Positions 45,873-64,000 of a stretch of DNA of 64,000 bases are shown in pieces. Each line of letters starts with the position of its first letter. Within the stretch, counting starts at the first letter, position 1. The stretch is from Patescibacteria group bacterium (GTDB taxonomy: Bacteria; Patescibacteriota; Saccharimonadia; CAILAD01; JADZBC01), in assembly GCA_052034495.1 (NCBI GenBank), contig JBPOIL010000010.1, positions 14,457 to 78,456 of the forward strand. The letters are read 5' to 3'. Below the pieces are notes generated by a model. It had not been told where the DNA came from, did not search any database, and was given only the letters and a program-made list of their open reading frames with translations. The position numbers and the translations under genes were made by a program.

Positions 45873-46502
45873 TTGCAGGCAACCGACCAGTCCACATCCA
45901 CCTCGCGAGCACTCGTGCTCGCCGACAAGATCCTGCCGGCCATCATGGACCCGGCGCAGTTCCCGCAGATCGCGGGCGGCAAGTCCCAGACCGACAAGAT
46001 CAACCTCGCGCGCGACGTGGCCGACATCGTCGTTCGTCGCAACGCCGACGAGAGCCAGGACGAGGGCTTCGCCCTCACCCTGGTGACCACCATGGACGAG
46101 TTCCCCAAGAAGGCTTCCAAGGCTGCCGTCAGCCTGCTGCTCGACACGGGGATGAGCTCGATGGAGGTGCACGGGGCGATGAAGTTCGCCACGGAGCTGG
46201 ACGTCAGCCTGGACTTCGCCATCACGTGGATGAAGTACTGGGACGTCACCCTGTCCGACGAGGACGAGGTGTCAGCCTGTGCGGACTCCACCATCGAGCT
46301 GCTCAACGCGCAGCCGCGCGGCGTCGGGATCAACGCCCAGGGCAAGCTCCAGGGCGGGACCCGTCCGCGGAACCCGCACTCGGTCCCCGACCCGGGGCAG
46401 AGCCAGGACCGCGAGCAGATCCTGCTCACGGCCCGCCAGCTCGGCGAAGACCTCAACAAGAGGACCCTCGACGAGCTGGTCGACCACTTCGGTGGCTCCT
46501 GA
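45873..46502 (+). CDS. Hypothetical protein (high GC), first gene of a two-gene operon
   Basis: TTG start with a good ribosome-binding site. 209 aa, no recognizable domain. Its stop overlaps the next start (TGATG). Confidence 0.5.
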   Translation: MQATDQSTSTSRALVLADKILPAIMDPAQFPQIAGGKSQTDKINLARDVADIVVRRNADESQDEGFALTLVTTMDEFPKKASKAAVSLLLDTGMSSMEVHGAMKFATELDVSLDFAITWMKYWDVTLSDEDEVSACADSTIELLNAQPRGVGINAQGKLQGGTRPRNPHSVPDPGQSQDREQILLTARQLGEDLNKRTLDELVDHFGGS

Positions 46503-47431
46503 TGGCTCGCCTACAGAACCCCTTCTTGACCCTCGGGCTCACCCCCGCAGTGGTCAAGAAGGCCAAGTTCGAAGGCGCCATCGCCATCGCCAAGGTCATG
46601 TACCTGCAGAACAGTCGCCTTCACCACCCCGACACGGGCGGTGACAGGCGGCTGTTCGAGGCCGTGGCCGAGGCGTGGGAGCTACTCAACGGCGAGATGG
46701 CACAGGCCTTCTACGACGAGTACGTCTCGTCGCAGGCCGCCAAGCGGGCAGAGTCAGCAGCCCAGCTCCGCCTCGAACATGAGGCCGAGCTGAAGCAGTG
46801 GCGGGACGCCCTCGAGCGCACGCTCGAAGCGCCCCACCGTCAAGGAAACGTGTTCAACCCCACGGCAGGCCTTCGGGTCCTGCTGAGGGGCAAGCACTCC
46901 TTCCTGGAGCTGACGTTCGAGGGCGGCAAGCTGGCAGTACACACGCATGACCAGCTAGACCAAGAAGAGATGCCCTCCACTGTCAAGGGAGGCATGTCGG
47001 CCTACTACTACTCCAACGGGGAAACCCTGAAGAGTCATGGTGGAATCGACGGTGACGGCAAGGAGCTGGAAGCCGACGAGGGCCCAACCGACCTTCGGGA
47101 AGGATGGTACCAAATCGGACCAGTCACGGACGAAGGGACCAATCTCTACTCCCCGCTGGAGCCTTCGGGCAGAAAGCAGGAGAAGGACGTCTCGCCGTTC
47201 GTGCTGATCAGGGGCCACGCCACACGGGTCGCAGCCGACATCGGTCGGCAGCGTAGGCTCTCGGCAGGCGAGGACGATGCGTCCATCGCCGGCATCGAGG
47301 TCTCAAGTCTCGTGAGCAACCCTCAGCTCCTCAGCTTCGAGTGGAAGGAGGGCGCAGCCCTACTGGCCATCACACCGGGCCAAAGGATCGACATCCTCGG
47401 CACGGTGGTTGGCATCTACGCGCCGACCTGA
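46502..47431 (+). CDS. J-domain (DnaJ-like, HPD motif) protein with a ~240-aa C-terminal domain of unknown function
   Basis: MARLQNPFLTLGLTPAVVKKAKFEGAIAIAKVMYLQNSRLHHPDTGGDRRLFEAVAEAWELL has helix II, the HPD loop and helix III spacing of a J domain. The table ORF starting at 46226 overlaps the upstream gene and is an over-extension. Confidence 0.6.
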   Translation: MARLQNPFLTLGLTPAVVKKAKFEGAIAIAKVMYLQNSRLHHPDTGGDRRLFEAVAEAWELLNGEMAQAFYDEYVSSQAAKRAESAAQLRLEHEAELKQWRDALERTLEAPHRQGNVFNPTAGLRVLLRGKHSFLELTFEGGKLAVHTHDQLDQEEMPSTVKGGMSAYYYSNGETLKSHGGIDGDGKELEADEGPTDLREGWYQIGPVTDEGTNLYSPLEPSGRKQEKDVSPFVLIRGHATRVAADIGRQRRLSAGEDDASIAGIEVSSLVSNPQLLSFEWKEGAALLAITPGQRIDILGTVVGIYAPT

Positions 47432-47463
47432 GCTGAGCTCTCATGCTTCCTGGGATGTGATTC

Positions 47464-47541
47464 CCGGGGACGCCCCTAAAAAGGCGTCCCCGGTTTCCCA
47501 AGCAATTATCTAAAAACCACCTCAAACACGAGGTGGTTTTT
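47464..47541. terminator. Tandem hairpins ending the high-GC operon
   Basis: A GC hairpin ccggggacgcc-cctaaaaag-ggcgtccccgg (47464-47493) is followed by the bidirectional terminator aaaaaccacctc-aaacac-gaggtggttttt (47512-47541). Confidence 0.75.
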
Positions 47542-51364: not shown

Positions 51365-51550
51365 CCCGAATAGGAGAAGGCCCAGAGTCGAAACCCTGGG
51401 CCTTATTCACCCTCCTTCGATGCAGGTCTATGACCCGCTCAGATAGCCGTCGCTCGGCTAGCACACTATTCCCTTGTGCTAGGGTCGCTGCCATTATGTT
51501 GCCTGGCTGCAGCGAGGTGATTCTTCCGAATCTACCACGGGCCAAAGCCC

Positions 51551-51868
51551 TCAGAAGCGGCTGCTGCACTCCTTGGGGAGCATCAACACGTCGCCCTTGC
51601 TGAACTGCTCCTTGCCGTAGACCTCACTGCGCTGGATGATCAGCCGGCGCCACGCCTGGAGCGACTCGCGCCCCGGCTTGGTCGTCTTGGCGAACTCGTC
51701 CATCGTCAGCGGCGTCTGCAGCGTCACTGCCGCTTCGCAGCCGTAGCGGTCGTTCAGCGACTGGCCGTTGAGTGAGTGGCTCACGCCACCGCAGCCGGCC
51801 AGCACGAAGACGAGGAGGATTGCCGCAGTAACCGCGCGGCGCCGATGAGTGGTGATGTGTGTGTTCAT
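51551..51868 (-). CDS. LysM-like small lipoprotein, paralog 1 (high GC)
   Basis: Signal peptide with lipobox LAGC. C-terminal ...WRRLIIQRSEVYGKEQFSKGDVLMLPKEC resembles the end of a LysM motif. Paralogous to 57370..57678. Confidence 0.5.
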   Translation of the reverse strand: MNTHITTHRRRAVTAAILLVFVLAGCGGVSHSLNGQSLNDRYGCEAAVTLQTPLTMDEFAKTTKPGRESLQAWRRLIIQRSEVYGKEQFSKGDVLMLPKECSSRF

Positions 51869-53462
51869 CTCGCTACTGGCATTACCAGCAATGAGATGAA
51901 CACAACGCTCAACCGAATTTCAACTCCTGTTTCGCCATAACTTGGCTCATCGGTGCAGATCACTATCTGCAGACAGGGTCCCTCCAAGGAGCACGTCCTG
52001 CTCCCTGTAGGGATTTACGCATTGCCCGATCGGGCTTGAAGGCCACTTCGCGCTGGCCTGCTCTCTTTTTGTGGTCATGAGCTAGACCGTTGCGGTGCCT
52101 AGAAGGCTTCTTTTTCTCGCCAACTATACTTCTGTTGTCAGGCCGTCGCTACGGCCCCGAAGCTCCTACCGGCGGCGGCGTGGGTTCGGCGGACCGAACG
52201 CCTCGTCGTAGCTGATGGGGTCCCCCTTGAGGTCTTCCGGATCCTCATCCGTCTCCCAGCGCCCAAACAGGACATTGCGAGGATCGAACGATGCACCTTC
52301 ATGCTCTTCTGAACTACGTGGCATAACCGCCCCTTGCTACGGAGTTGCGATTCAACTCCCCGACGGGAGGCACCCGCCTCTTACCTCCGGCTGGGGAGTT
52401 GAATTGTTAAAGTCTGTAAAAGTTCTCTGATAGTTTCGTCATTTCTGACTCATCAGCTCGGACATACATCCGAGGACTATCTACTCACGAACCCTTAACG
52501 GGCTCGCGAGCGACCCTGGGGAGCCTCTGCACGACAGCGCAAAGTCTACAACCCAGGTAAGGTTTGCCTAGCTTCACTCGACCGAGTGACCTAGAGCGGC
52601 TTACCTTCTGCCGCGGCGTGATTGCGTTCGCCTTAGAGGGCATACCGGTTTTCAGGCCGTGTATGTCCGGGGTAGCGAAACGCACTTTTAGCTAGTGGAG
52701 TTAACCCCGGATCACTTGTTGGTCTCCCACCACTCTCGTGGTCGCGCGTCCCGCTTGGGACTACACGTCGGGGTTTGTACCCGCAGGCTGATCCAATCTC
52801 CTCTCCTGTGCATACCCCTTTCTCCGCGCCGCGGAGGGTTTGGACGGGCCGCCCTCATCGCTCGATCGCGACATGCACTTTACTAGCATCGAACTGTGGC
52901 TGTGATTGGCGGGGATGCTTCCGCGCAATCACTTTGCTAAGGTCTATCCAGGTAAGCTGCGGGTAGCAACCTTACTGGACTCCTTGGCTTCTAGGTACTA
53001 CGTAGCTCTGGGAGGATCTGGTACCTCAACCGGAGCCGGGGTTGTCATGGCCGTGCTTTCGCTCGGCGCCCCTATTCCCTAAGGGCACGTGCCATACGCG
53101 CCCACTTTCGTCCACAATCCTCGCTCGCATAGGCTGGCAAGGAAACTCCCGAAGGAGCGCTGTCCGTGAACATTTGTTGGCCTCAACAGCCAGGGTGCTG
53201 GCGTCCTGTCATGCTTGGTGTAAATATTTACAGAACCCAGCGCCTTGACTGTCGATAACCTTTGACGTTTATTTTTTGAAGTTCTACGCGCTCTTCAGCT
53301 GCACTGTCGAGAATATTACACGGTTGTTTATTTTTTGTCAATACTTTTTGTCACTATATTGCAAACATTATGCAATATTATCTTGATCTAACCTGTAAAA
53401 TACTGTTGAACTTTCCAAACACTTAAGCATAAGCCTGTTGGGTACTTGTAGGTTTTTGTAAC

Positions 53463-53485
53463 AAAAAACGCCCTTAAGGGCGCTT
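53463..53485 (-). terminator. Intrinsic terminator on the minus strand
   Basis: The minus strand reads aagcgccctt-aagggcgttttttg. Confidence 0.55.
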
Positions 53486-53887
53486 AGAGTGAGAATGATA
53501 TCTGTGATGCCAGGGTGGCCGACCGATCCCTCGCGGGAAAGGCCGGCCACCCACGTGGCGCAGAGCTGTGTCGTTCGGCGCTGGACGCACCGGCGAGAAA
53601 GCTCTGTGAGCACGGAGGCTCGTAGTTCCGAGCAGTGGTTGCTCGATTGCGGCCTGGGCGCTGGGCCCTGGCTACATCCGGTGATGAGGACGATCACTCG
53701 CCCTCCTCCTGGTTGTTGTTGGCGGCTAGATGCCGCCACCGATGCGAGCGGTCATGGTAGACCTCCCTGTGTATGACGGGCTTGCGCCATCTCGAGACGA
53801 TCCCGAGATACGGCAGCTATGCACGCATCATGTGCACTGCCGTCAGTCAGTGTTGATAATAGCAGATTTAGCCATAATTGTCAAGCT

Positions 53888-54649
53888 TTATTGACGTTTT
53901 TGGTTATTCCAGGCGAGCTCGAACAGCTGTCTTAATGCGGCTGCGATCTCTTTGCTTTCAATAATTACGCTAATGGAGTCATGTTCCCCGTAGGTGCCGA
54001 TAGCAACGCCTTCTTCGTAGAGAGCAATGTCGGCCGAAATCGGTGTATCCAGCTTAGACGTCTCCCTCATCAAGCTCTTATCCGTGTTCAGGTCCCCGAT
54101 AGTTGAGTAGTAGAACATCTTACTTGATATCTTTTTCTTTAGGCGCTTTGTCGGGTTGGCCTTCAACGCATCCGGAAAGAGTTTAACGACTTCGTTATAG
54201 TCAGAGAGGGCGTACACGGAAGACCCAGTTCTAGCCTTCCTGCGGAGGTAGCCATCAATGGCGACTGCACCTTCCTTACCGCGGAAAAACCTTACCTCTG
54301 GAGCGTCAGAAGAGCCGCCGTGCTCCTGCTGCTTTAGACTTGGCATTAAGCTCTTCAATTCACTCTTTTTTGCCTCAATACTTGTCTTCTGGCCTTCCAG
54401 ATATCGTTCTAGAGCCTCGGGGGGTTCGGCAACGAAAACAGTTTTTTTACCCTCTGTAGACTGGCTAACCATGCCCATCCCGGCAAGCTCATCGAGAATT
54501 ACATAGGTGGTAGCACGGTTTACTTCGGCTTGCTGAGCTATCTTTTGCGCGCTTGCTGAACCTAGAAAAAGCGCAGCCACGTACACACGGGCTTGCTTGT
54601 CGGTCAATCCAACAGATTGTAGTTTGGTTGCGAGTTCGATTATTTGCAT
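53888..54649 (-). CDS. TrmB-family transcriptional regulator, paralog 1
   Basis: N-terminal TrmB HTH LGLTDKQARVYVAALFLGSASAQKIAQQAEVNRATTYVILDEL, plus a C-terminal effector-like domain. Confidence 0.75.
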   Translation of the reverse strand: MQIIELATKLQSVGLTDKQARVYVAALFLGSASAQKIAQQAEVNRATTYVILDELAGMGMVSQSTEGKKTVFVAEPPEALERYLEGQKTSIEAKKSELKSLMPSLKQQEHGGSSDAPEVRFFRGKEGAVAIDGYLRRKARTGSSVYALSDYNEVVKLFPDALKANPTKRLKKKISSKMFYYSTIGDLNTDKSLMRETSKLDTPISADIALYEEGVAIGTYGEHDSISVIIESKEIAAALRQLFELAWNNQKRQ

Positions 54650-56285: not shown

Positions 56286-56375
<90 letters not shown>

Positions 56376-56408: not shown

Positions 56409-57185
56409 CTATTTTCCAGCTTTACCGGCCCGCAAACCATCCCTGACAAGTCCAAATATCTGTGTCATAGCCTCGGCAATTTGTGGACTCTCTATAATGG
56501 TGCCAATCACTTCCTCGCCGTATGAGATTAGCGCGGTTTTATTGCCGTAAACATACATGTTCACCGGAGCAGTAAATGCCTCCCTGGGTGCCCAAGTCAT
56601 TTCCCTGAGCATTCGCTTGTCATTCTCCTGCCCATAGTGGATGTTGTCATCCTCGGCAGGCTCAATACCGTGGGCCTTAATCCCAAGCTTTGCACGCTGC
56701 TCCATGTGCTTATAGAGATCCTTACCAAGCACGTTAAAGTCTGCATCAGAGCGAATAAAGTAAATGTCCTGCGCCGTACGTCGCTGATCTTCGTACATCT
56801 TCATAATACCTTCTTTACCCTGAAAGAAGCGTACACCCGGCTGATGCTGGTAAGTATAGAAGTAATTAAGTAGCTGGGGCATACTGTCGCGCACCTGCTT
56901 TTCAGTACTCATTACATCTTTACGCTTCTGCTCTATCAAACGTTCAAGTGCTGTCGGGTTGGCGGGCCTATATAGCAGCTTCTTACCGCTCTCGTCCTTC
57001 TCAATAAGCCCCATGTCTACCAGGCGGTCGAGGACCATATATGAATTGGTGCGTGTTTCGCCAACCTTCTCGGCTAGCTGTGGTGCTGGTAGCGAGCCGA
57101 ATTTGATCAATGCTATGTAGGCTTTGGCTTGGCTTTTGGTCAAGCCTATTTGAGTGAGCAGCTCTATATTCATAGAGTTTATCAT
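56409..57185 (-). CDS. TrmB-family transcriptional regulator, paralog 2
   Basis: LGLTKSQAKAYIALIKFGSLPAPQLAEKVGETRTNSYMVLDRL HTH. Architecture matches the 53888..54649 paralog. Confidence 0.75.
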   Translation of the reverse strand: MINSMNIELLTQIGLTKSQAKAYIALIKFGSLPAPQLAEKVGETRTNSYMVLDRLVDMGLIEKDESGKKLLYRPANPTALERLIEQKRKDVMSTEKQVRDSMPQLLNYFYTYQHQPGVRFFQGKEGIMKMYEDQRRTAQDIYFIRSDADFNVLGKDLYKHMEQRAKLGIKAHGIEPAEDDNIHYGQENDKRMLREMTWAPREAFTAPVNMYVYGNKTALISYGEEVIGTIIESPQIAEAMTQIFGLVRDGLRAGKAGK

Positions 57186-57369
57186 AGCAAAGATTGGCTA
57201 TTTTGTCAATCCTATTTTGACTATATAGTTACCTTTTCTTATCTGTTGGTCAATATAACGTATATTATATATTGACTATTTAGGCCATTTATTGTATACT
57301 TCTCCAGGCTCAAGCAACACGGCTAGAGCCCGGGGAACACCACCCCGCCCGCTCCCTAAGGAGAGCACC

Positions 57370-57678
57370 TTGAAGACCACGACCACCCACCCCCGTAAGC
57401 GCTGGCTCGCCACCGCAGCCCTGACCCTGGCCGCCCTACTCGGCGCCCTAGGACTCAGCAGCTGCGCAGAGAGCACGCGAGACGCCTACGCCTGCAACAC
57501 CGAGGTGACGATCGACTACACCAAGCCGGTCAAGCTCAGCGACTTCGCGCAGGACACGGACCCGCGGGGCAACTGGCGAGAGTGGAAGCAGCTCCTCATC
57601 GAGCGCAACCACCTCTACGCGGACACCCTGAAGCCCGGGCAGAAGGTCAAGCTGCCTCAGGCCTGCAAGAAGGTCTGA
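57370..57678 (+). CDS. LysM-like small lipoprotein, paralog 2 (high GC)
   Basis: TTG start after AAGGAGAG. Lipobox LSSC. C-terminal WREWKQLLIERNHLYADTLKPGQKVKLPQAC is homologous to paralog 1. Confidence 0.5.
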   Translation: MKTTTTHPRKRWLATAALTLAALLGALGLSSCAESTRDAYACNTEVTIDYTKPVKLSDFAQDTDPRGNWREWKQLLIERNHLYADTLKPGQKVKLPQACKKV

Positions 57679-59914: not shown

Positions 59915-61827
<1,913 letters not shown>

Positions 61828-61879
61828 GTTTACCTCCTTGTTAATTGCTTAGTGCACACAAATTACTCTTTTGTAAGCA

Positions 61880-61906
61880 TTAGCACTCTAATGCTTTGAG
61901 TGCTAA
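61880..61906 (-). promoter_or_regulatory. CIRCE operator (HrcA-binding site) upstream of groES
   Basis: TTAGCACTC-N9-GAGTGCTAA is a perfect match to the CIRCE consensus. Confidence 0.85.
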
Positions 61907-62378
61907 ATATAGTGTACAAAATGACGGGCTTGAGCGTCAAGACCCCTGCCACTTGCATCTCCGGCCTTGGAGCTCCTGCCTTCCGCGACATTCGAATATC
62001 CTGGACGTGATTCGGAGTACTCAGAACAGAAAGACCGAGGATTGTTTGAGCCTGTTTCAGGCGAGTCCCGCAGGACGCTTCTGTTTGAGTACGGAGAATC
62101 ACCACCAAGAGATGAGCCCCATGTCGCAAATACTTTTGACTACTTTTGGTATCTTCAAAAGTAGTAATGAAGAATGAGCTATCTTGTTTTAAACTGGATG
62201 CCCTTTTGAAAGACCCAAAAGGGCGAAAAGGTCTTCCGACCACGGGTTCGCATCTAGGTGCGTTCGTTCACTCATGAAACTAGAATGTCGTGCCCACTGC
62301 GAGTTTGAGGACTCTCGTGGTTCACTTGTTCTGGTTCATGAGCTCCTCACTGCCTGATGCTCCAGGGTCGGGGAGCAT

Positions 62379-62434
62379 GCAACTTTCGCTCTTTTGAGCT
62401 CATCAGAATAACCTACAGTTATTGAGTTGCCACC
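62379..62434 (-). ncRNA. Type-III hammerhead ribozyme (candidate)
   Basis: Minus strand: GGUGGCAAC-UC|AAUAAC-UGUAG-GUUAUU-CUGAUGA-GCUC-AAAA-GAGC-GAAA-GUUGC. Stem I is 6 bp with a 5-nt loop. Stem II is 4 bp with an AAAA loop. Stem III is 6 bp including A15.1-U16.1. Cleavage triplet is CUC. Confidence 0.6.
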
Positions 62435-62520
62435 CCAGGCCGAAGCCCGGGATGAGGAGTTTATATGGCTTACTCCTGTGCCTGCGTAGTTCCCGAAGGA
62501 GCTACTTGTTGTGTTGCGGC

Positions 62521-64000
62521 CTAGTTGCCGCTAGCCGATGCCGTTCGTCGACTGCGCTCTTCAGCGCTGAGCTGCGACAGCTCGTCGATGGTCGCATCGA
62601 TCTGAGCCTGCAGCTCGGCATCCGTGAGGGCCGAGAGCTCCTCGTCGGACTCACCGGGCGTGGGGGTCTCCCCCGGCACAGCCAGTTCGTCCTCGGTGCC
62701 ATCGATCAGCACGCGACCAATCTCGCCACCGTTGAGCTCCACCGCCTGATCGAGCTGACCAGGTCGGATGCGGAGCAGGTAACGGGGCTGGCCGGACTGC
62801 GTGGCGAACACCACCCAGTTGCCATCCTCGCCCGGGATGAACTCCTCCAATCGACCCTTTTGCCCCTCGTTGAGGAACGCGGGGTCGAGCTTGCGGAGGA
62901 TGTCCCTGGCGCGCCGTTCCAGATCTTGCTCGGTGAGGGCGTTGCCGTCCTCGTCTCCGTGCACCTGGACTCGAATCGTGTTCAGCTGGCCGTACGTGAC
63001 GGTGTCGCTGGGAACGAAGCTGACGGCCTGGATGACCTGGCTGCGGGTGCCCTTGGCGGTGAGCGGCGTCACGAAGTACATCCGCCCATCCTCCTGGCTC
63101 CGCAGGTTGTAGTCGGCAGGGTTCTCGGCATTCGCATCGATGTTTACCGGCTCGAAGCCGAAGGCATCGTTGCTGTACCACTTGCGCCCAGCAGCCCAGT
63201 TGACCATCTCGCGCTGCTTGGTAGCGACGCTGATGGGGTACACCGGGCCAGGAATCTCACCCGACTTCACCGAACGCTTGTACTCGATGGCCGGCGAGCC
63301 GGACTCCGAGCCACGCACCACGATGACGCCCGCAGGCACCTCAATGCTGCGTGAACCGTTCCACCGGTCGGTCTTGACCGGGATCACGATCACGGGGTTG
63401 TCATGGGTGTCGCAGTAGCCATAGACGTCGCTGAGACCCCAGTACACGTTGGCGCTCACCTGCTCCCGGATACGATCCGAGAGGCTGTTGGCGTACTCGC
63501 CCGTGATGGCCGCGTCGAGGCGGTTCTTGCCCTCGAAGCGACACTGGTGGACCTTCTCGGCGTCACCATTCCACTCGACGATGCTGTCGATGTGGATGCG
63601 CTTGCCTTCGCCGTCGCGGATGGCCGTCCACTTGCCCTTGCCTTCTCGATCTGAGATGTAGGCGTAGGTGTCGTCCAAGATGTCAGCCTTGGATGATCCA
63701 GTGGCGCGCTCGCTCATGATCCGTTGGGCGCCAGCCAGCGAGGCAGGGCGCTCTTCGAAACCACTTGCGAGGTACTCCGTGGGCTTGCCGGCCACGATCT
63801 TGGCCGGACCGACGTCGTGTCCACCCTCGAGCAACCGAGCCAGGATGCGCGGAGGCGCGTCCTTGTCAGCGTACTCGATCGAGACCGAACGCACAAACGG
63901 CGCGGCCTCGAGCTTGGAATCTGTTCCTGTGGGGAAACTCGCGGGCATAGTCATCAGGATGAAGCACACGCAAGCGACCACGGCTGTCGCCGTGATCAGC
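62521..64000 (-). CDS. Secreted or membrane-anchored hypothetical protein (high GC), probably 5'-truncated by the window edge
   Basis: Long high-GC ORF with a hydrophobic N-terminus (TATAVVACVCFILMTMPASFP), an acidic C-terminus and no recognizable domain. The opposite-strand ORF 62422..63354 is a compositional artefact. Confidence 0.5.
   Translation of the reverse strand, partial: LITATAVVACVCFILMTMPASFPTGTDSKLEAAPFVRSVSIEYADKDAPPRILARLLEGGHDVGPAKIVAGKPTEYLASGFEERPASLAGAQRIMSERATGSSKADILDDTYAYISDREGKGKWTAIRDGEGKRIHIDSIVEWNGDAEKVHQCRFEGKNRLDAAITGEYANSLSDRIREQVSANVYWGLSDVYGYCDTHDNPVIVIPVKTDRWNGSRSIEVPAGVIVVRGSESGSPAIEYKRSVKSGEIPGPVYPISVATKQREMVNWAAGRKWYSNDAFGFEPVNIDANAENPADYNLRSQEDGRMYFVTPLTAKGTRSQVIQAVSFVPSDTVTYGQLNTIRVQVHGDEDGNALTEQDLERRARDILRKLDPAFLNEGQKGRLEEFIPGEDGNWVVFATQSGQPRYLLRIRPGQLDQAVELNGGEIGRVLIDGTEDELAVPGETPTPGESDEELSALTDAELQAQIDATIDELSQLSAEERSRRTASASGN

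What the first reader, a model, noticed from the sequence alone, without database searches (positions are those of the whole stretch)
62379..62434. Complete type-III hammerhead ribozyme motif in a long ORF-free spacer upstream of groES
On the minus strand all eleven invariant core nucleotides (CUGAUGA...GAAA plus the UH cleavage site) sit in the correct register between three helices: stem I AAUAAC/GUUAUU, stem II GCUC/GAGC, and stem III GCAACU/AGUUGC with the obligatory A15.1-U16.1 pair. A chance CUGAUGA heptamer is expected a few times in 128 kb of two-strand sequence. The additional GAAA spacing and three compatible helices make a chance match unlikely. It lies inside a ~560-nt region (61907-62520) without a plausible ORF, between the groES CIRCE operator and a high-GC secreted-protein gene. 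Bacterial hammerheads are often associated with mobile or phage-derived DNA.
Basis: seen in the sequence. Interest (0 to 1): 0.75.

Follow-up and report, generated by a model that had tools for sequence, protein, structure and literature searches.

The report
Genuine hammerhead ribozyme upstream of groES
The flagged sequence is very probably a real self-cutting RNA (a type III hammerhead ribozyme) of a kind already common in phages, here kept in a bacterial chromosome just after a conserved gene, where relatives have an ordinary transcription terminator.

Summary
On the minus strand at 62430..62379 there is a complete type III hammerhead: all core bases, three helices, G10.1-C11.1, A15.1-U16.1, and cleavage after C62424. 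It falls below Rfam's curated cutoff (35.6 vs 48.5 bits). A model built only from 85 independent metagenome and viral members of the same architecture scores it at 54.6 bits (E=3.5e-13). A strict three-helix descriptor gives 0 hits in 1000 shuffles of the window.

Orthologues sit at the same place in four other distinct Saccharibacteria-like lineages, with compensatory changes in stems II and III. The ribozyme lies about 90 nt after a conserved orphan ORF of about 580 aa. More distant relatives have a classic U-tract terminator at that position.

Across the class, a stable hairpin lies just upstream and unstructured RNA lies downstream. The most likely role is to make a hairpin-protected 3' end on the upstream RNA and cut it free from read-through into groESL. 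Cleavage itself and this role are inferred, not shown.

Verdict: new member of a known kind, in a noteworthy context.

The parts
62379..62430 (-). HH#1: type III hammerhead ribozyme. The predicted scissile bond lies between C62424 and A62423.
   Evidence: RF00008 gives 35.6 bits. Class model R1 gives 54.6 bits, E=3.5e-13. Orthologues were found in L001, L093, L094, L087, L092 and L337.
62432..62520 (-). Conserved structured 3' UTR of the upstream ORF. It has three hairpins: 62505-62486; the AGGAG...CUCCU hairpin at 62477-62455; and a GC-rich UUCG hairpin at about 62453-62432 that abuts the hammerhead. There is no U-tract.
   Evidence: Alignment with L001 and with the other orthologues shows stems that co-vary. 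The 45 nt upstream of HH#1 fold at -19.6 kcal/mol.
62521..63981 (-). C-terminal 486 codons of a conserved orphan ORF. The full length is about 578 aa and the start lies beyond the window end. The ORF is consistently GC-rich. It is the gene whose transcript carries HH#1 at its 3' end.
   Evidence: One search found 19 clusters with no Pfam domain. Searches found no family match. One search shows the ORF is 7-14 GC points above the rest of its locus in all relatives. The AlphaFold model is low-confidence (pLDDT 58) with N-terminal helices and a beta-rich body, and has no fold match.
61948..62377 (-). Lineage-specific 430-nt ORF-free insertion that begins at, or within a base of, the nucleotide after HH#1. 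It is strongly structured and its function is unknown.
   Evidence: blastn blocks show it is absent from L001, L093, L094 and L337. Fold z = -4.75. No Rfam match.
61880..61940 (-). groES promoter-like site (TTGACG-N18-TACACT, 61940-61911) and CIRCE operator (61906-61880). These are the downstream neighbour of the ribozyme module.
   Evidence: promoter scan; sequence. The site is conserved in L001, L092, L093 and L337.
52429..52481 (-). HH#2: second type III hammerhead with the same architecture. Cleavage is predicted after C52475.
   Evidence: RF00008 gives 43.5 bits. R1 gives 67.0 bits, E=7e-17. The orthologue is at L337 12975..12923.
51925..51978 (-). HH#3: hammerhead-like copy with a core variant, CCGAUGA (U4 to C), and a 5-nt loop 2. 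It lies about 450 nt downstream of HH#2. It is possibly weakened or inactive.
   Evidence: R1 gives 37.5 bits, E=4e-8. It has no counterpart in L337.
52482..53305 (-). ORF-free, highly structured transcript of about 820 nt that ends at HH#2. It is a candidate large non-coding RNA, preceded by a promoter-like site at 53341-53313.
   Evidence: Fold z = -6.4 and -4.8. There is no Rfam family match. Its 3' 330 nt are 86% identical to L337, with 1-nt indels and compensatory changes.

Best explanation
HH#1 is a genuine type III hammerhead ribozyme. It is co-transcribed on the minus strand as the last element of the 3' UTR of a conserved orphan gene of about 580 aa, in a Saccharibacteria-like (Patescibacteria) chromosome.

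Shown from sequence: the complete core; three helices supported by compensatory changes; membership of a large, stereotyped class of hammerheads that is abundant in phage and metagenome contigs; and conservation at the same place in several lineages.

Inferred mechanism: once RNA polymerase has transcribed past position 62379, the ribozyme folds and cuts between C62424 and A62423. Because a type III hammerhead cuts near its own 5' end, the upstream mRNA is released with only about 8 extra nucleotides after a very stable UUCG hairpin, and it carries a 2',3'-cyclic phosphate. That gives a protected 3' end without any need for transcription termination. The downstream RNA starts with a 5'-OH and the ribozyme body, and is thereby uncoupled from the upstream message. 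Here that downstream RNA is read-through towards the groES promoter, CIRCE and groESL.

The module therefore does the job that a hairpin plus U-tract terminator does at the same position in more distant relatives. HH#2 would do the same for an ORF-free structured RNA of about 820 nt.
For: Identity:
- full core, E=3.5e-13 with a model trained on unrelated sequences, and 0 of 1000 shuffles matching the descriptor.
- Class: the search pattern did not require pairing, yet 113 of 137 metagenome and 128 of 142 viral matches have all three helices. Loops 1 and 2 of the window copies fit the class consensus UGYGUR and NAAA.

Orthologues: L001, L093, L094, L087, L092 and L337 all have the hammerhead 90-110 nt after the homologous ORF. 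They show C-G to U-A in stem III, an added A-U pair in L092, and two swapped pairs in stem II. In A4, 98% of cells are paired and 15 of 16 pairs change on both sides.

Conservation: the ORF-plus-hammerhead block is 85-89% identical in DNA, against 73-79% for groESL, and the block ends exactly at the ribozyme's last base.

Terminator swap: relatives with 58-60% ORF identity (L081-84, L088-91) have no hammerhead. They have a GC hairpin plus a hairpin with a T-run at that place.

Class-wide anatomy:
- Same-strand ORFs lie on both sides in about 85% of loci, the median distance from the preceding stop is 46 nt, and a T-run follows in only 8 of 94.
- The 45 nt upstream fold at -13.7 vs -7.5 kcal/mol for controls (p=1e-19), and the 45 nt downstream are unstructured (p=5e-14).
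- The 5' product ends in a hairpin with a median 3-nt tail, and only 7 of 236 tails are U-rich.
- Paired copies in phage contigs bracket single ORFs tightly.

Literature: Perreault et al. 2011 (PMC3088659) showed in-vitro cleavage of clustered bacterial hammerheads and proposed processing of long transcripts into gene-length mRNAs.
Against: - No cleavage assay and no RNA data exist for this locus. Activity and the fate of both products are inferred.
- The Rfam score is below the curated cutoff.
- Loop 1 of HH#1 is one base shorter than in most class members, and its stem I hairpin is among the weakest 0.5% of the class (-1.2 kcal/mol). The rate at physiological Mg2+ could therefore be low.
- In L087 a terminator-like hairpin still follows the hammerhead, so the ribozyme is not simply a terminator replacement everywhere.
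- HH#3 and the L337 orthologue of HH#2 carry U4C in the core, so some copies may be decaying.
- The class statistics use partly related phage sequences, so the p-values are inflated.
- The promoter of the upstream ORF lies outside the window, so co-transcription is assumed from strand and spacing.
Confidence: 0.6

Rival explanations
1. It is a real hammerhead but a functionless relic. On this view a copy was left behind by a phage or other mobile element and persists by inertia, contributing nothing to expression of the neighbouring genes.
For: The class is abundant in viral contigs. HH#3 and the L337 orthologue of HH#2 carry a core change, U4C. L085 has the slow U15.1-A16.1 variant (PMC3088659). 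The region downstream of HH#1 is an insertion hot spot. HH#1 has an unusually weak stem I.
Against: The HH#1 core is intact in all five distinct orthologous sequences. Stems II and III changed only by compensatory substitutions. Meanwhile the adjacent ORF diverged to 64% protein identity and groESL to 73% DNA identity. The hammerhead and its 3' UTR are better conserved than housekeeping genes. No phage genes are nearby.
Confidence: 0.15
2. The ORF plus hammerhead is a horizontally moving cassette, and the ribozyme marks or helps form its 3' boundary, for example through an RNA intermediate.
For: The ORF is 7-14 GC points richer than the rest of its locus. The block is more similar between genomes than groESL. 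Similarity ends exactly at the last base of the hammerhead. L002 lacks both the ORF and the hammerhead.
Against: The GC excess is present in every relative, including those with 38% identity, so it is an old property of the gene. The ORF keeps the same neighbourhood next to groES in lineages with and without the hammerhead. No integrase, reverse transcriptase, terminal repeats or second flanking ribozyme were found. Only 19 protein clusters exist.
Confidence: 0.1
3. It is a regulated, temperature-sensitive switch. The marginally stable, invariant stem I melts on heat shock, cleavage stops, and intact read-through transcripts then add to groESL expression.
For: HH#1 sits 13-20 nt from the groES -35 box in L001, L093 and L337. 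Its stem I hairpin is in the weakest 0.5% of the class, yet it is invariant in sequence across orthologues.
Against: L087 has the same ORF, 3' UTR and an identical stem I, but a terminator-like hairpin and a convergent sigma-factor gene downstream, with no groES. The window has 430 nt and L092 about 110 nt inserted between the ribozyme and the promoter. groES has its own promoter and CIRCE. There are no expression data.
Confidence: 0.07
4. It is a chance match to the hammerhead consensus.
For: The Rfam score is below the gathering threshold. The core pattern alone is not enriched. The fold z-score of the bare 56-mer is only -1.2.
Against: 0 of 1000 shuffles contain the full descriptor. E=3.5e-13 with an independent model. 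There is a second copy in the window, and syntenic orthologues show compensatory changes.
Confidence: 0.01

Closest known systems
Clustered or intercistronic hammerheads of prophages and phages (Perreault et al. 2011, PMC3088659; review by de la Pena et al. 2017, PMC6155905)
   Same: - The ribozyme has the same stereotyped architecture that I recovered in more than 240 metagenome and IMG/VR loci: 6-bp stem I, UGYGUR loop 1, 4-bp stem II and an NAAA loop 2.
- It is co-directional with flanking genes and lies just after a stop codon.
- HH#2 and HH#3 lie about 450 nt apart around a tiny ORF, as described for bacterial copies.
   Different: - HH#1 is not in a prophage. It sits in a conserved chromosomal block next to groESL and is inherited vertically across several Saccharibacteria-like lineages.
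- It is a single copy after a 580-aa host gene, not one of a flanking pair.
- Sister lineages have an intrinsic terminator at that position.
Rfam RF00008 Hammerhead_3 (type III hammerheads of viroids, satellite RNAs and plants)
   Same: It has the same core, the same topology (stem III open) and the same cleavage chemistry. The match runs over the full length of the model.
   Different: It scores below the family's gathering cutoff (35.6 and 43.5 bits vs 48.5). Its loops are shorter and different. It is DNA-encoded in a bacterial chromosome and is not part of a circular RNA replicon that processes multimers.
Intrinsic (Rho-independent) terminators
   Same: It occupies the same position after the same gene as the terminator of relatives L081-84 and L088-91. 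It leaves the upstream RNA ending just after a stable GC hairpin.
   Different: There is no U-tract. RNA polymerase is not released, and the 3' end is made by RNA self-cleavage (2',3'-cyclic phosphate) after transcription has passed.
Synthetic ribozyme insulators such as RiboJ, derived from the sTRSV type III hammerhead (from my own knowledge, not checked here)
   Same: A type III hammerhead placed between an upstream transcript and a downstream gene cuts near its own 5' end. This removes upstream context and leaves the ribozyme body on the 5'-OH end of the downstream RNA.
   Different: RiboJ is engineered and sits in a 5' UTR after a promoter. The element here is natural, lies upstream of the downstream gene's own promoter, and appears tied to the upstream gene.
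Hammerheads in 3' UTRs of mammalian CLEC2 genes, and the glmS ribozyme / RNase J1 pathway (from my own knowledge, not checked here)
   Same: In these systems self-cleavage within an mRNA sets its fate. In Bacillus subtilis, 5'-OH products are known substrates for RNase J1.
   Different: The CLEC2 hammerhead is discontinuous and eukaryotic. glmS is a different ribozyme class in a 5' UTR and is controlled by a metabolite. No ligand or regulator is evident here.

Membership tests
Hammerhead ribozyme, type III | Conserved catalytic core: C3 U4 G5 A6 N7 G8 A9, G12 A13 A14, and H17 at the cleavage site | tested here: met
   CUGAUGA at 62406-62400, GAA at 62387-62385 and C17 at 62424. The same holds in HH#2. 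HH#3 has C at position 4.
Hammerhead ribozyme, type III | A15.1-U16.1 and G10.1-C11.1 closing pairs | tested here: met
   A62384 pairs with U62425, and G62399 pairs with C62388. Both pairs are invariant in the 85-sequence class alignment.
Hammerhead ribozyme, type III | Three helices around the core, with stems I and II closed by loops and stem III open | tested here: met
   Stem I has 6 bp, stem II 4 bp and stem III 6 bp. The minimum-energy fold of both the 56-mer and the 146-nt native context shows the junction.
Hammerhead ribozyme, type III | Helices supported by covariation in related sequences | tested here: met
   Among the orthologues and paralogues (A4), 98.4% of cells are paired and 15 of 16 pairs change on both sides; slid controls give 29-49% paired. 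Between HH#1 orthologues there are compensatory changes in stems II and III and an added pair in L092. Stem I is invariant among orthologues, so it is uninformative there.
Hammerhead ribozyme, type III | Score at or above the curated Rfam gathering threshold for RF00008 | tested here: not met
   35.6 bits for HH#1 and 43.5 bits for HH#2, against 48.5. The E-values are still 6e-4 and 3.5e-6 for the whole window against all 4227 families.
Hammerhead ribozyme, type III | Loop 1 / loop 2 tertiary contact needed for fast cleavage at physiological Mg2+ | tested here: inconclusive
   The loops match the class consensus (UGYGUR with AAAA or GAAA). No contact can be verified, and HH#1's loop 1 is one base short (UGUAG).
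Hammerhead ribozyme, type III | Site-specific self-cleavage giving 2',3'-cyclic phosphate and 5'-OH ends | not testable with these tools
   This needs in-vitro transcription or end-specific RNA sequencing.
Prophage/phage clustered hammerheads | Located in a prophage or near integrase or phage genes | tested here: not met
   No PHROG hits for neighbouring proteins apart from one weak match to a family of unknown function for the 105-aa ORF at 51551-51868 (E=0.0036). No phage DNA similarity around HH#2 and HH#3. Housekeeping synteny is conserved.
Prophage/phage clustered hammerheads | Several ribozymes close together that flank single genes or short gene blocks on the same strand | tested here: inconclusive
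   This is met for HH#2 and HH#3, which are about 450 nt apart around a 52-codon ORF. It is not met for HH#1, which is a single copy 10 kb away, although it is co-directional with both neighbours.
Intrinsic terminator | GC-rich hairpin followed directly by a U-tract | tested here: not met
   The hairpin at about 62453-62432 is followed by GGCAACUC, and no terminator-like site was found there. Relatives L081-84 and L088-91 do have one at this position.

The most novel reading that the evidence does not exclude
In this Saccharibacteria-like lineage, phage-type hammerheads may have been domesticated as chromosomal 'hairpin plus ribozyme' modules that make RNA 3' ends in place of intrinsic terminators. 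One module serves a conserved membrane-protein gene that abuts the groESL promoter. Another defines the 3' end of a previously undescribed structured non-coding RNA of about 0.8 kb. If the hairpin-upstream, unstructured-downstream anatomy seen across more than 200 class members reflects the same mechanism, it would give a concrete and testable answer to the long-open question of what prokaryotic and phage hammerheads are for.
Probability: 0.3. Interest if true: 0.6.

Novelty: new member of a known kind. Interest (0 to 1): 0.4.

Why it matters
Bacterial and phage hammerheads have been known since 2010-2011, but their biological role is still described as open (PMC6155905). This locus offers a natural comparison. 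The same gene in the same neighbourhood ends either in a hammerhead or in a classic terminator, depending on lineage, and the ribozyme has been kept with compensatory changes. Combined with the class-wide finding of a stable hairpin placed flush against the cleavage site, this points to a specific and testable function: ribozyme-made, hairpin-protected 3' ends that insulate the upstream transcript from downstream genes. The full-text library held no paper that mentions hammerheads together with Saccharibacteria or the candidate phyla radiation, so this may be the first such report. It also shows that Rfam's cutoff for RF00008 misses a very large natural class.

Tried and rejected
1. Repeat or mobile-element origin. 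A self-BLAST of 50-64 kb against the window found no similarity between the flanks of the three hammerheads.
2. Identity of the partner ORF. Pfam, PHROGs, PDB sequence search, an AlphaFold model (pLDDT 58) and Foldseek against the PDB gave nothing usable.
3. Known RNA families. A permissive Rfam scan of 61800-62600 and 51400-53900 found only the hammerheads.
4. Phage origin of the HH#2/HH#3 region. blastn against 50,697 phage records found no match.
5. Recent horizontal transfer as the cause of the ORF's high GC. I rejected this because the GC excess is present in all relatives, down to 38% identity.
6. The weak R1 hit at 47443-47487. It has no catalytic core, so I rejected it as a hammerhead.
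7. The very stable fold at 46.3-47.1 kb. I first suspected a non-coding RNA, but the region encodes a J-domain protein.
8. Upstream hairpins as ordinary terminators. I rejected this because only 7 of 236 class members have a U-rich tail.
9. L095 (37% ORF homologue). It has no recognisable hammerhead downstream.
10. The 95% paired figure for A3 is partly circular, because I selected those sequences for pairing. The fair number is the unfiltered 86%.

Full report
**1. The observation**

Read on the minus strand, 62430..62379 spells GCAACU-C / AAUAAC-UGUAG-GUUAUU / CUGAUGA / GCUC-AAAA-GAGC / GAAA / GUUGC.
- the CUGAUGA and GAAA core strands;
- C17 at plus position 62424;
- A15.1-U16.1 (62384 with 62425) and G10.1-C11.1;
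- three helices of 6, 4 and 6 bp, with stem III open (type III).

The ORF list shows only short or implausible overlapping ORFs between the stop of the upstream gene (62521) and groES (61827). CIRCE is at 61906-61880.

**2. Is it more than chance?**

- The core pattern alone is not significant: 2 matches against 0.75 expected.
- A strict descriptor requiring all three helices is found twice in the window and never in 1000 dinucleotide-preserving shuffles.
- Rfam's Hammerhead_3 model aligns end to end at 35.6 bits. That is below the gathering score of 48.5, so the default scan is silent. The E-value is 7.5e-6 locally and 6e-4 for the whole window against all 4227 families.
- The whole-window scan revealed a second, better type III hammerhead at 52482..52428 on the same strand (43.5 bits).

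**3. A class-specific, independent test**

I searched the metagenome and viral collections with a pattern that fixes only the core, the UC site, "UG" at the start of loop 1 and an NAAA loop 2.

The pattern does not demand any base pairing. Even so, 113 of 137 metagenome matches and 128 of 142 viral matches have a 5-6 bp stem I, a complete stem II and at least 3 further stem III pairs. This is therefore a very large natural class: loop 1 is UGYGUR and loop 2 is AAAA, then GAAA, in order of frequency.

I built a covariance model (R1) from 85 diverse members, excluding the window and its relatives. Over 201 kb it scores HH#2 at 67.0 bits (E=7e-17) and HH#1 at 54.6 bits (E=3.5e-13). It also finds a third copy at 51978..51925 (37.5 bits, E=4e-8) whose core reads CCGAUGA (U4 to C).

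**4. Orthologues and covariation**

GroEL places the window in a sparsely sampled Saccharibacteria-like lineage. The best matches are 81% ("bacterium SJ655") and 78% (Candidatus Saccharibacteria MAG).

The gene upstream of HH#1 belongs to an orphan family of only 19 clusters, each about 570-640 aa. I fetched DNA around 12 of the 19 clusters.

| Group | ORF identity to window | Loci | What follows the ORF |
|---|---|---|---|
| A | 64% or more | window/L096, L001/L094, L093, L087, L092, L337 | Three hairpins (the first two merged in L092), then the hammerhead, 90-110 nt after the stop |
| B | 58-60% | L081-84, L088-91 | A GC hairpin plus a canonical hairpin with a T-run; no hammerhead |
| C | 38% | L085, L086 | A hammerhead with U15.1-A16.1 (30.9 bits) |

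The group C variant is known to cleave slowly (PMC3088659). Supporting calls: 16, 18, 26-40, 56, 84, 85.

Among the five distinct group-A sequences:
- stem III shows C-G to U-A, and L092 has an added A-U pair;
- stem II shows two swapped pairs;
- L092 carries a 31-nt insertion in loop 2;
- the core is untouched.

On the model-guided alignment, 98.4% of cells pair and 15 of 16 pairs change on both sides. Slid controls give 29-49% paired.

The ORF-plus-hammerhead block is 85-89% identical in DNA between genomes whose groESL is 73-79% identical. Similarity stops exactly at the last base of the ribozyme.

**5. Local anatomy**

In L001, L093, L094 and L337 the hammerhead ends 13-20 nt before the groES -35 box, which is followed by CIRCE and groES. 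In the window, a 430-nt ORF-free, strongly structured segment (61948-62377, z = -4.75) is inserted directly after the ribozyme. L092 has about 110 nt of other sequence there. L087 has a terminator-like hairpin and a convergent sigma-factor gene.

The ORF's high GC is not a sign of recent transfer. The ORF is 7-14 GC points richer than the rest of its locus in every relative examined. The ORF itself remains unidentified: no Pfam, PHROG or PDB match, and a low-confidence model with N-terminal helices and a beta-rich body.

**6. How it most likely works**

Across the class:
- The ribozymes sit inside co-directional gene arrays. The nearest upstream ORF is on the same strand in 80 of 94 loci, and the nearest downstream ORF in 78 of 94.
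- The median distance from the preceding stop is 46 nt, and a T-run follows in only 8 of 94.
- In phage contigs, pairs bracket single ORFs tightly.
- The 45 nt immediately upstream fold far more stably than control segments 300 nt away (-13.7 vs -7.5 kcal/mol, p=1e-19). The 45 nt downstream are unusually open (-3.6 vs -7.0, p=5e-14).
- The predicted 5' cleavage product ends in a hairpin with a median 3-nt tail, and only 7 of 236 tails are U-rich.

The three window copies fit, at -19.6, -26.7 and -23.2 kcal/mol.

A type III hammerhead cuts near its own 5' end. The upstream RNA is therefore released almost flush with a stable hairpin and carries a cyclic phosphate, while the downstream RNA keeps the ribozyme body and a 5'-OH. 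Together with the terminator found at the same position in group B, the best-supported reading is a ribozyme-made, hairpin-protected 3' end that also severs read-through from the downstream unit, here groESL.

The anatomy and conservation are shown. The cleavage, the stability effects and the insulation are inferred. This extends the proposal of Perreault et al. 2011 that such ribozymes process long transcripts into gene-length RNAs.

**7. Caveats**

- There are no activity data and no RNA data.
- HH#1's loop 1 is one base short, and its stem I hairpin is in the weakest 0.5% of the class. That stem is nevertheless invariant across orthologues, including L087, which has no groES downstream.
- HH#3 and L337's copy of HH#2 carry U4C, so some copies may be weakened.
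- The class statistics include related phage sequences.
- The A3 pairing statistics are partly circular because of how I selected the sequences.

**8. The second locus**

HH#2 terminates an ORF-free stretch of about 820 nt that starts at a promoter-like site (53341-53313). The stretch folds with z = -6.4 or -4.8. It has no Rfam match.

Its last 330 nt are 86% identical to L337, with 1-nt indels and compensatory substitutions. Of 127 consensus pairs, none is broken, 4 are changed on both sides and 10 on one side. It is a candidate new structured RNA whose 3' end would be made by HH#2. With only two sequences this is suggestive, not established.

**9. Comparison and novelty**

Type I, II and III hammerheads in bacterial intergenic regions and prophages are established (PMC3088659, PMC6155905). 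The motif itself is therefore a new member of a known kind.

What is less ordinary is the context:
- a chromosomal, vertically inherited copy in a Patescibacteria lineage, for which the full-text library held no paper;
- the swap with a terminator in sister lineages;
- the class-wide hairpin-ribozyme anatomy.

Together these make the open question of function directly testable.

Noticed in passing
window 52429-52481 (-): A second complete type III hammerhead (HH#2). It scores higher than the reported one: RF00008 43.5 bits and R1 67 bits. All three helices differ in sequence from HH#1.
   Followed up: yes
window 51925-51978 (-); L337 12923-12975 (-): A third hammerhead-like copy (HH#3) has the core CCGAUGA (U4 to C). 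The same U4C change occurs independently in the L337 orthologue of HH#2. Either the variant is tolerated in this class or these copies are decaying.
   Followed up: partly
window 52482-53305 (-): An ORF-free, highly structured RNA of about 820 nt (z -4.8 to -6.4) with its own promoter-like site, ending at HH#2. Its 3' third is 86% conserved in L337 with compensatory changes. It matches no Rfam family and may be a new large non-coding RNA.
   Followed up: partly
window 53466-53850 (-): A GC-rich ORF-free unit of about 385 nt between a strong promoter-like site (53884-53856) and a clean intrinsic terminator (53485-53466). Fold z = -7.8. It is a likely small or medium non-coding RNA of unknown family.
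   Followed up: no
window 61948-62377 (-): A 430-nt structured (z = -4.75), ORF-free insertion placed directly after the last base of HH#1. It is absent from all relatives examined and contains a long imperfect inverted repeat.
   Followed up: partly
window 46300-47122 (+): A high-GC coding region (J-domain protein starting near 46502, 'MARLQNPF...HPD') folds far better than shuffles (z about -9, 15 shuffles only). This is unexplained.
   Followed up: no
window 47443-47487 (+): The hairpin CUGGGA-UGUGAU-UCCCGG resembles stem I and loop 1 of the hammerhead class but has no catalytic core (R1 14.3 bits, E=0.34). It lies just after the J-domain gene and before a terminator, and could be a decayed copy or chance.
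   Followed up: partly
window 62521-63981 (-) and homologues in L001, L081-L096: The orphan ORF of about 580 aa upstream of HH#1 is 7-14 GC points richer than the rest of its locus in every relative, and it is usually the gene immediately upstream of groES. Only 19 clusters exist among 5.8 billion proteins.
   Followed up: partly
window 51551-51868 (-) and 57292-57678 (+): Two GC-rich paralogous small lipoprotein-like ORFs; the second has a weak LysM-like C-terminus. The start codon of the first (51868) is buried in the 3' arm of a long hairpin just after HH#3.
   Followed up: no
L085 8099-8152 (+), L086: Downstream of a 38%-identical homologue of the ORF lies a hammerhead with U15.1-A16.1 in place of A-U. 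This is a natural variant type reported to cleave slowly (PMC3088659).
   Followed up: partly
L092 4283-4364 (+): This orthologue of HH#1 carries a 31-nt GC-rich insertion in loop 2 and an extra A-U pair in stem III, with the core intact.
   Followed up: no
L097-L336 (metagenome and IMG/VR loci): A class-wide pattern: a stable hairpin ends a median 3 nt before the hammerhead cleavage site, and the 45 nt after the ribozyme are unusually unstructured. In phage contigs, pairs of copies 0.4-2.2 kb apart (about 1.0-1.1 kb in half of the intervals) bracket single ORFs, one of which recurs (MRQITR...NAGW..TTKER).
   Followed up: partly
window 53888-54649 (-) and 56409-57185 (-): Two paralogous TrmB-family regulator genes flank the tRNA gene (56289-56375) and a 402-aa orphan ORF. 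L001's contig breaks just past this point.
   Followed up: no
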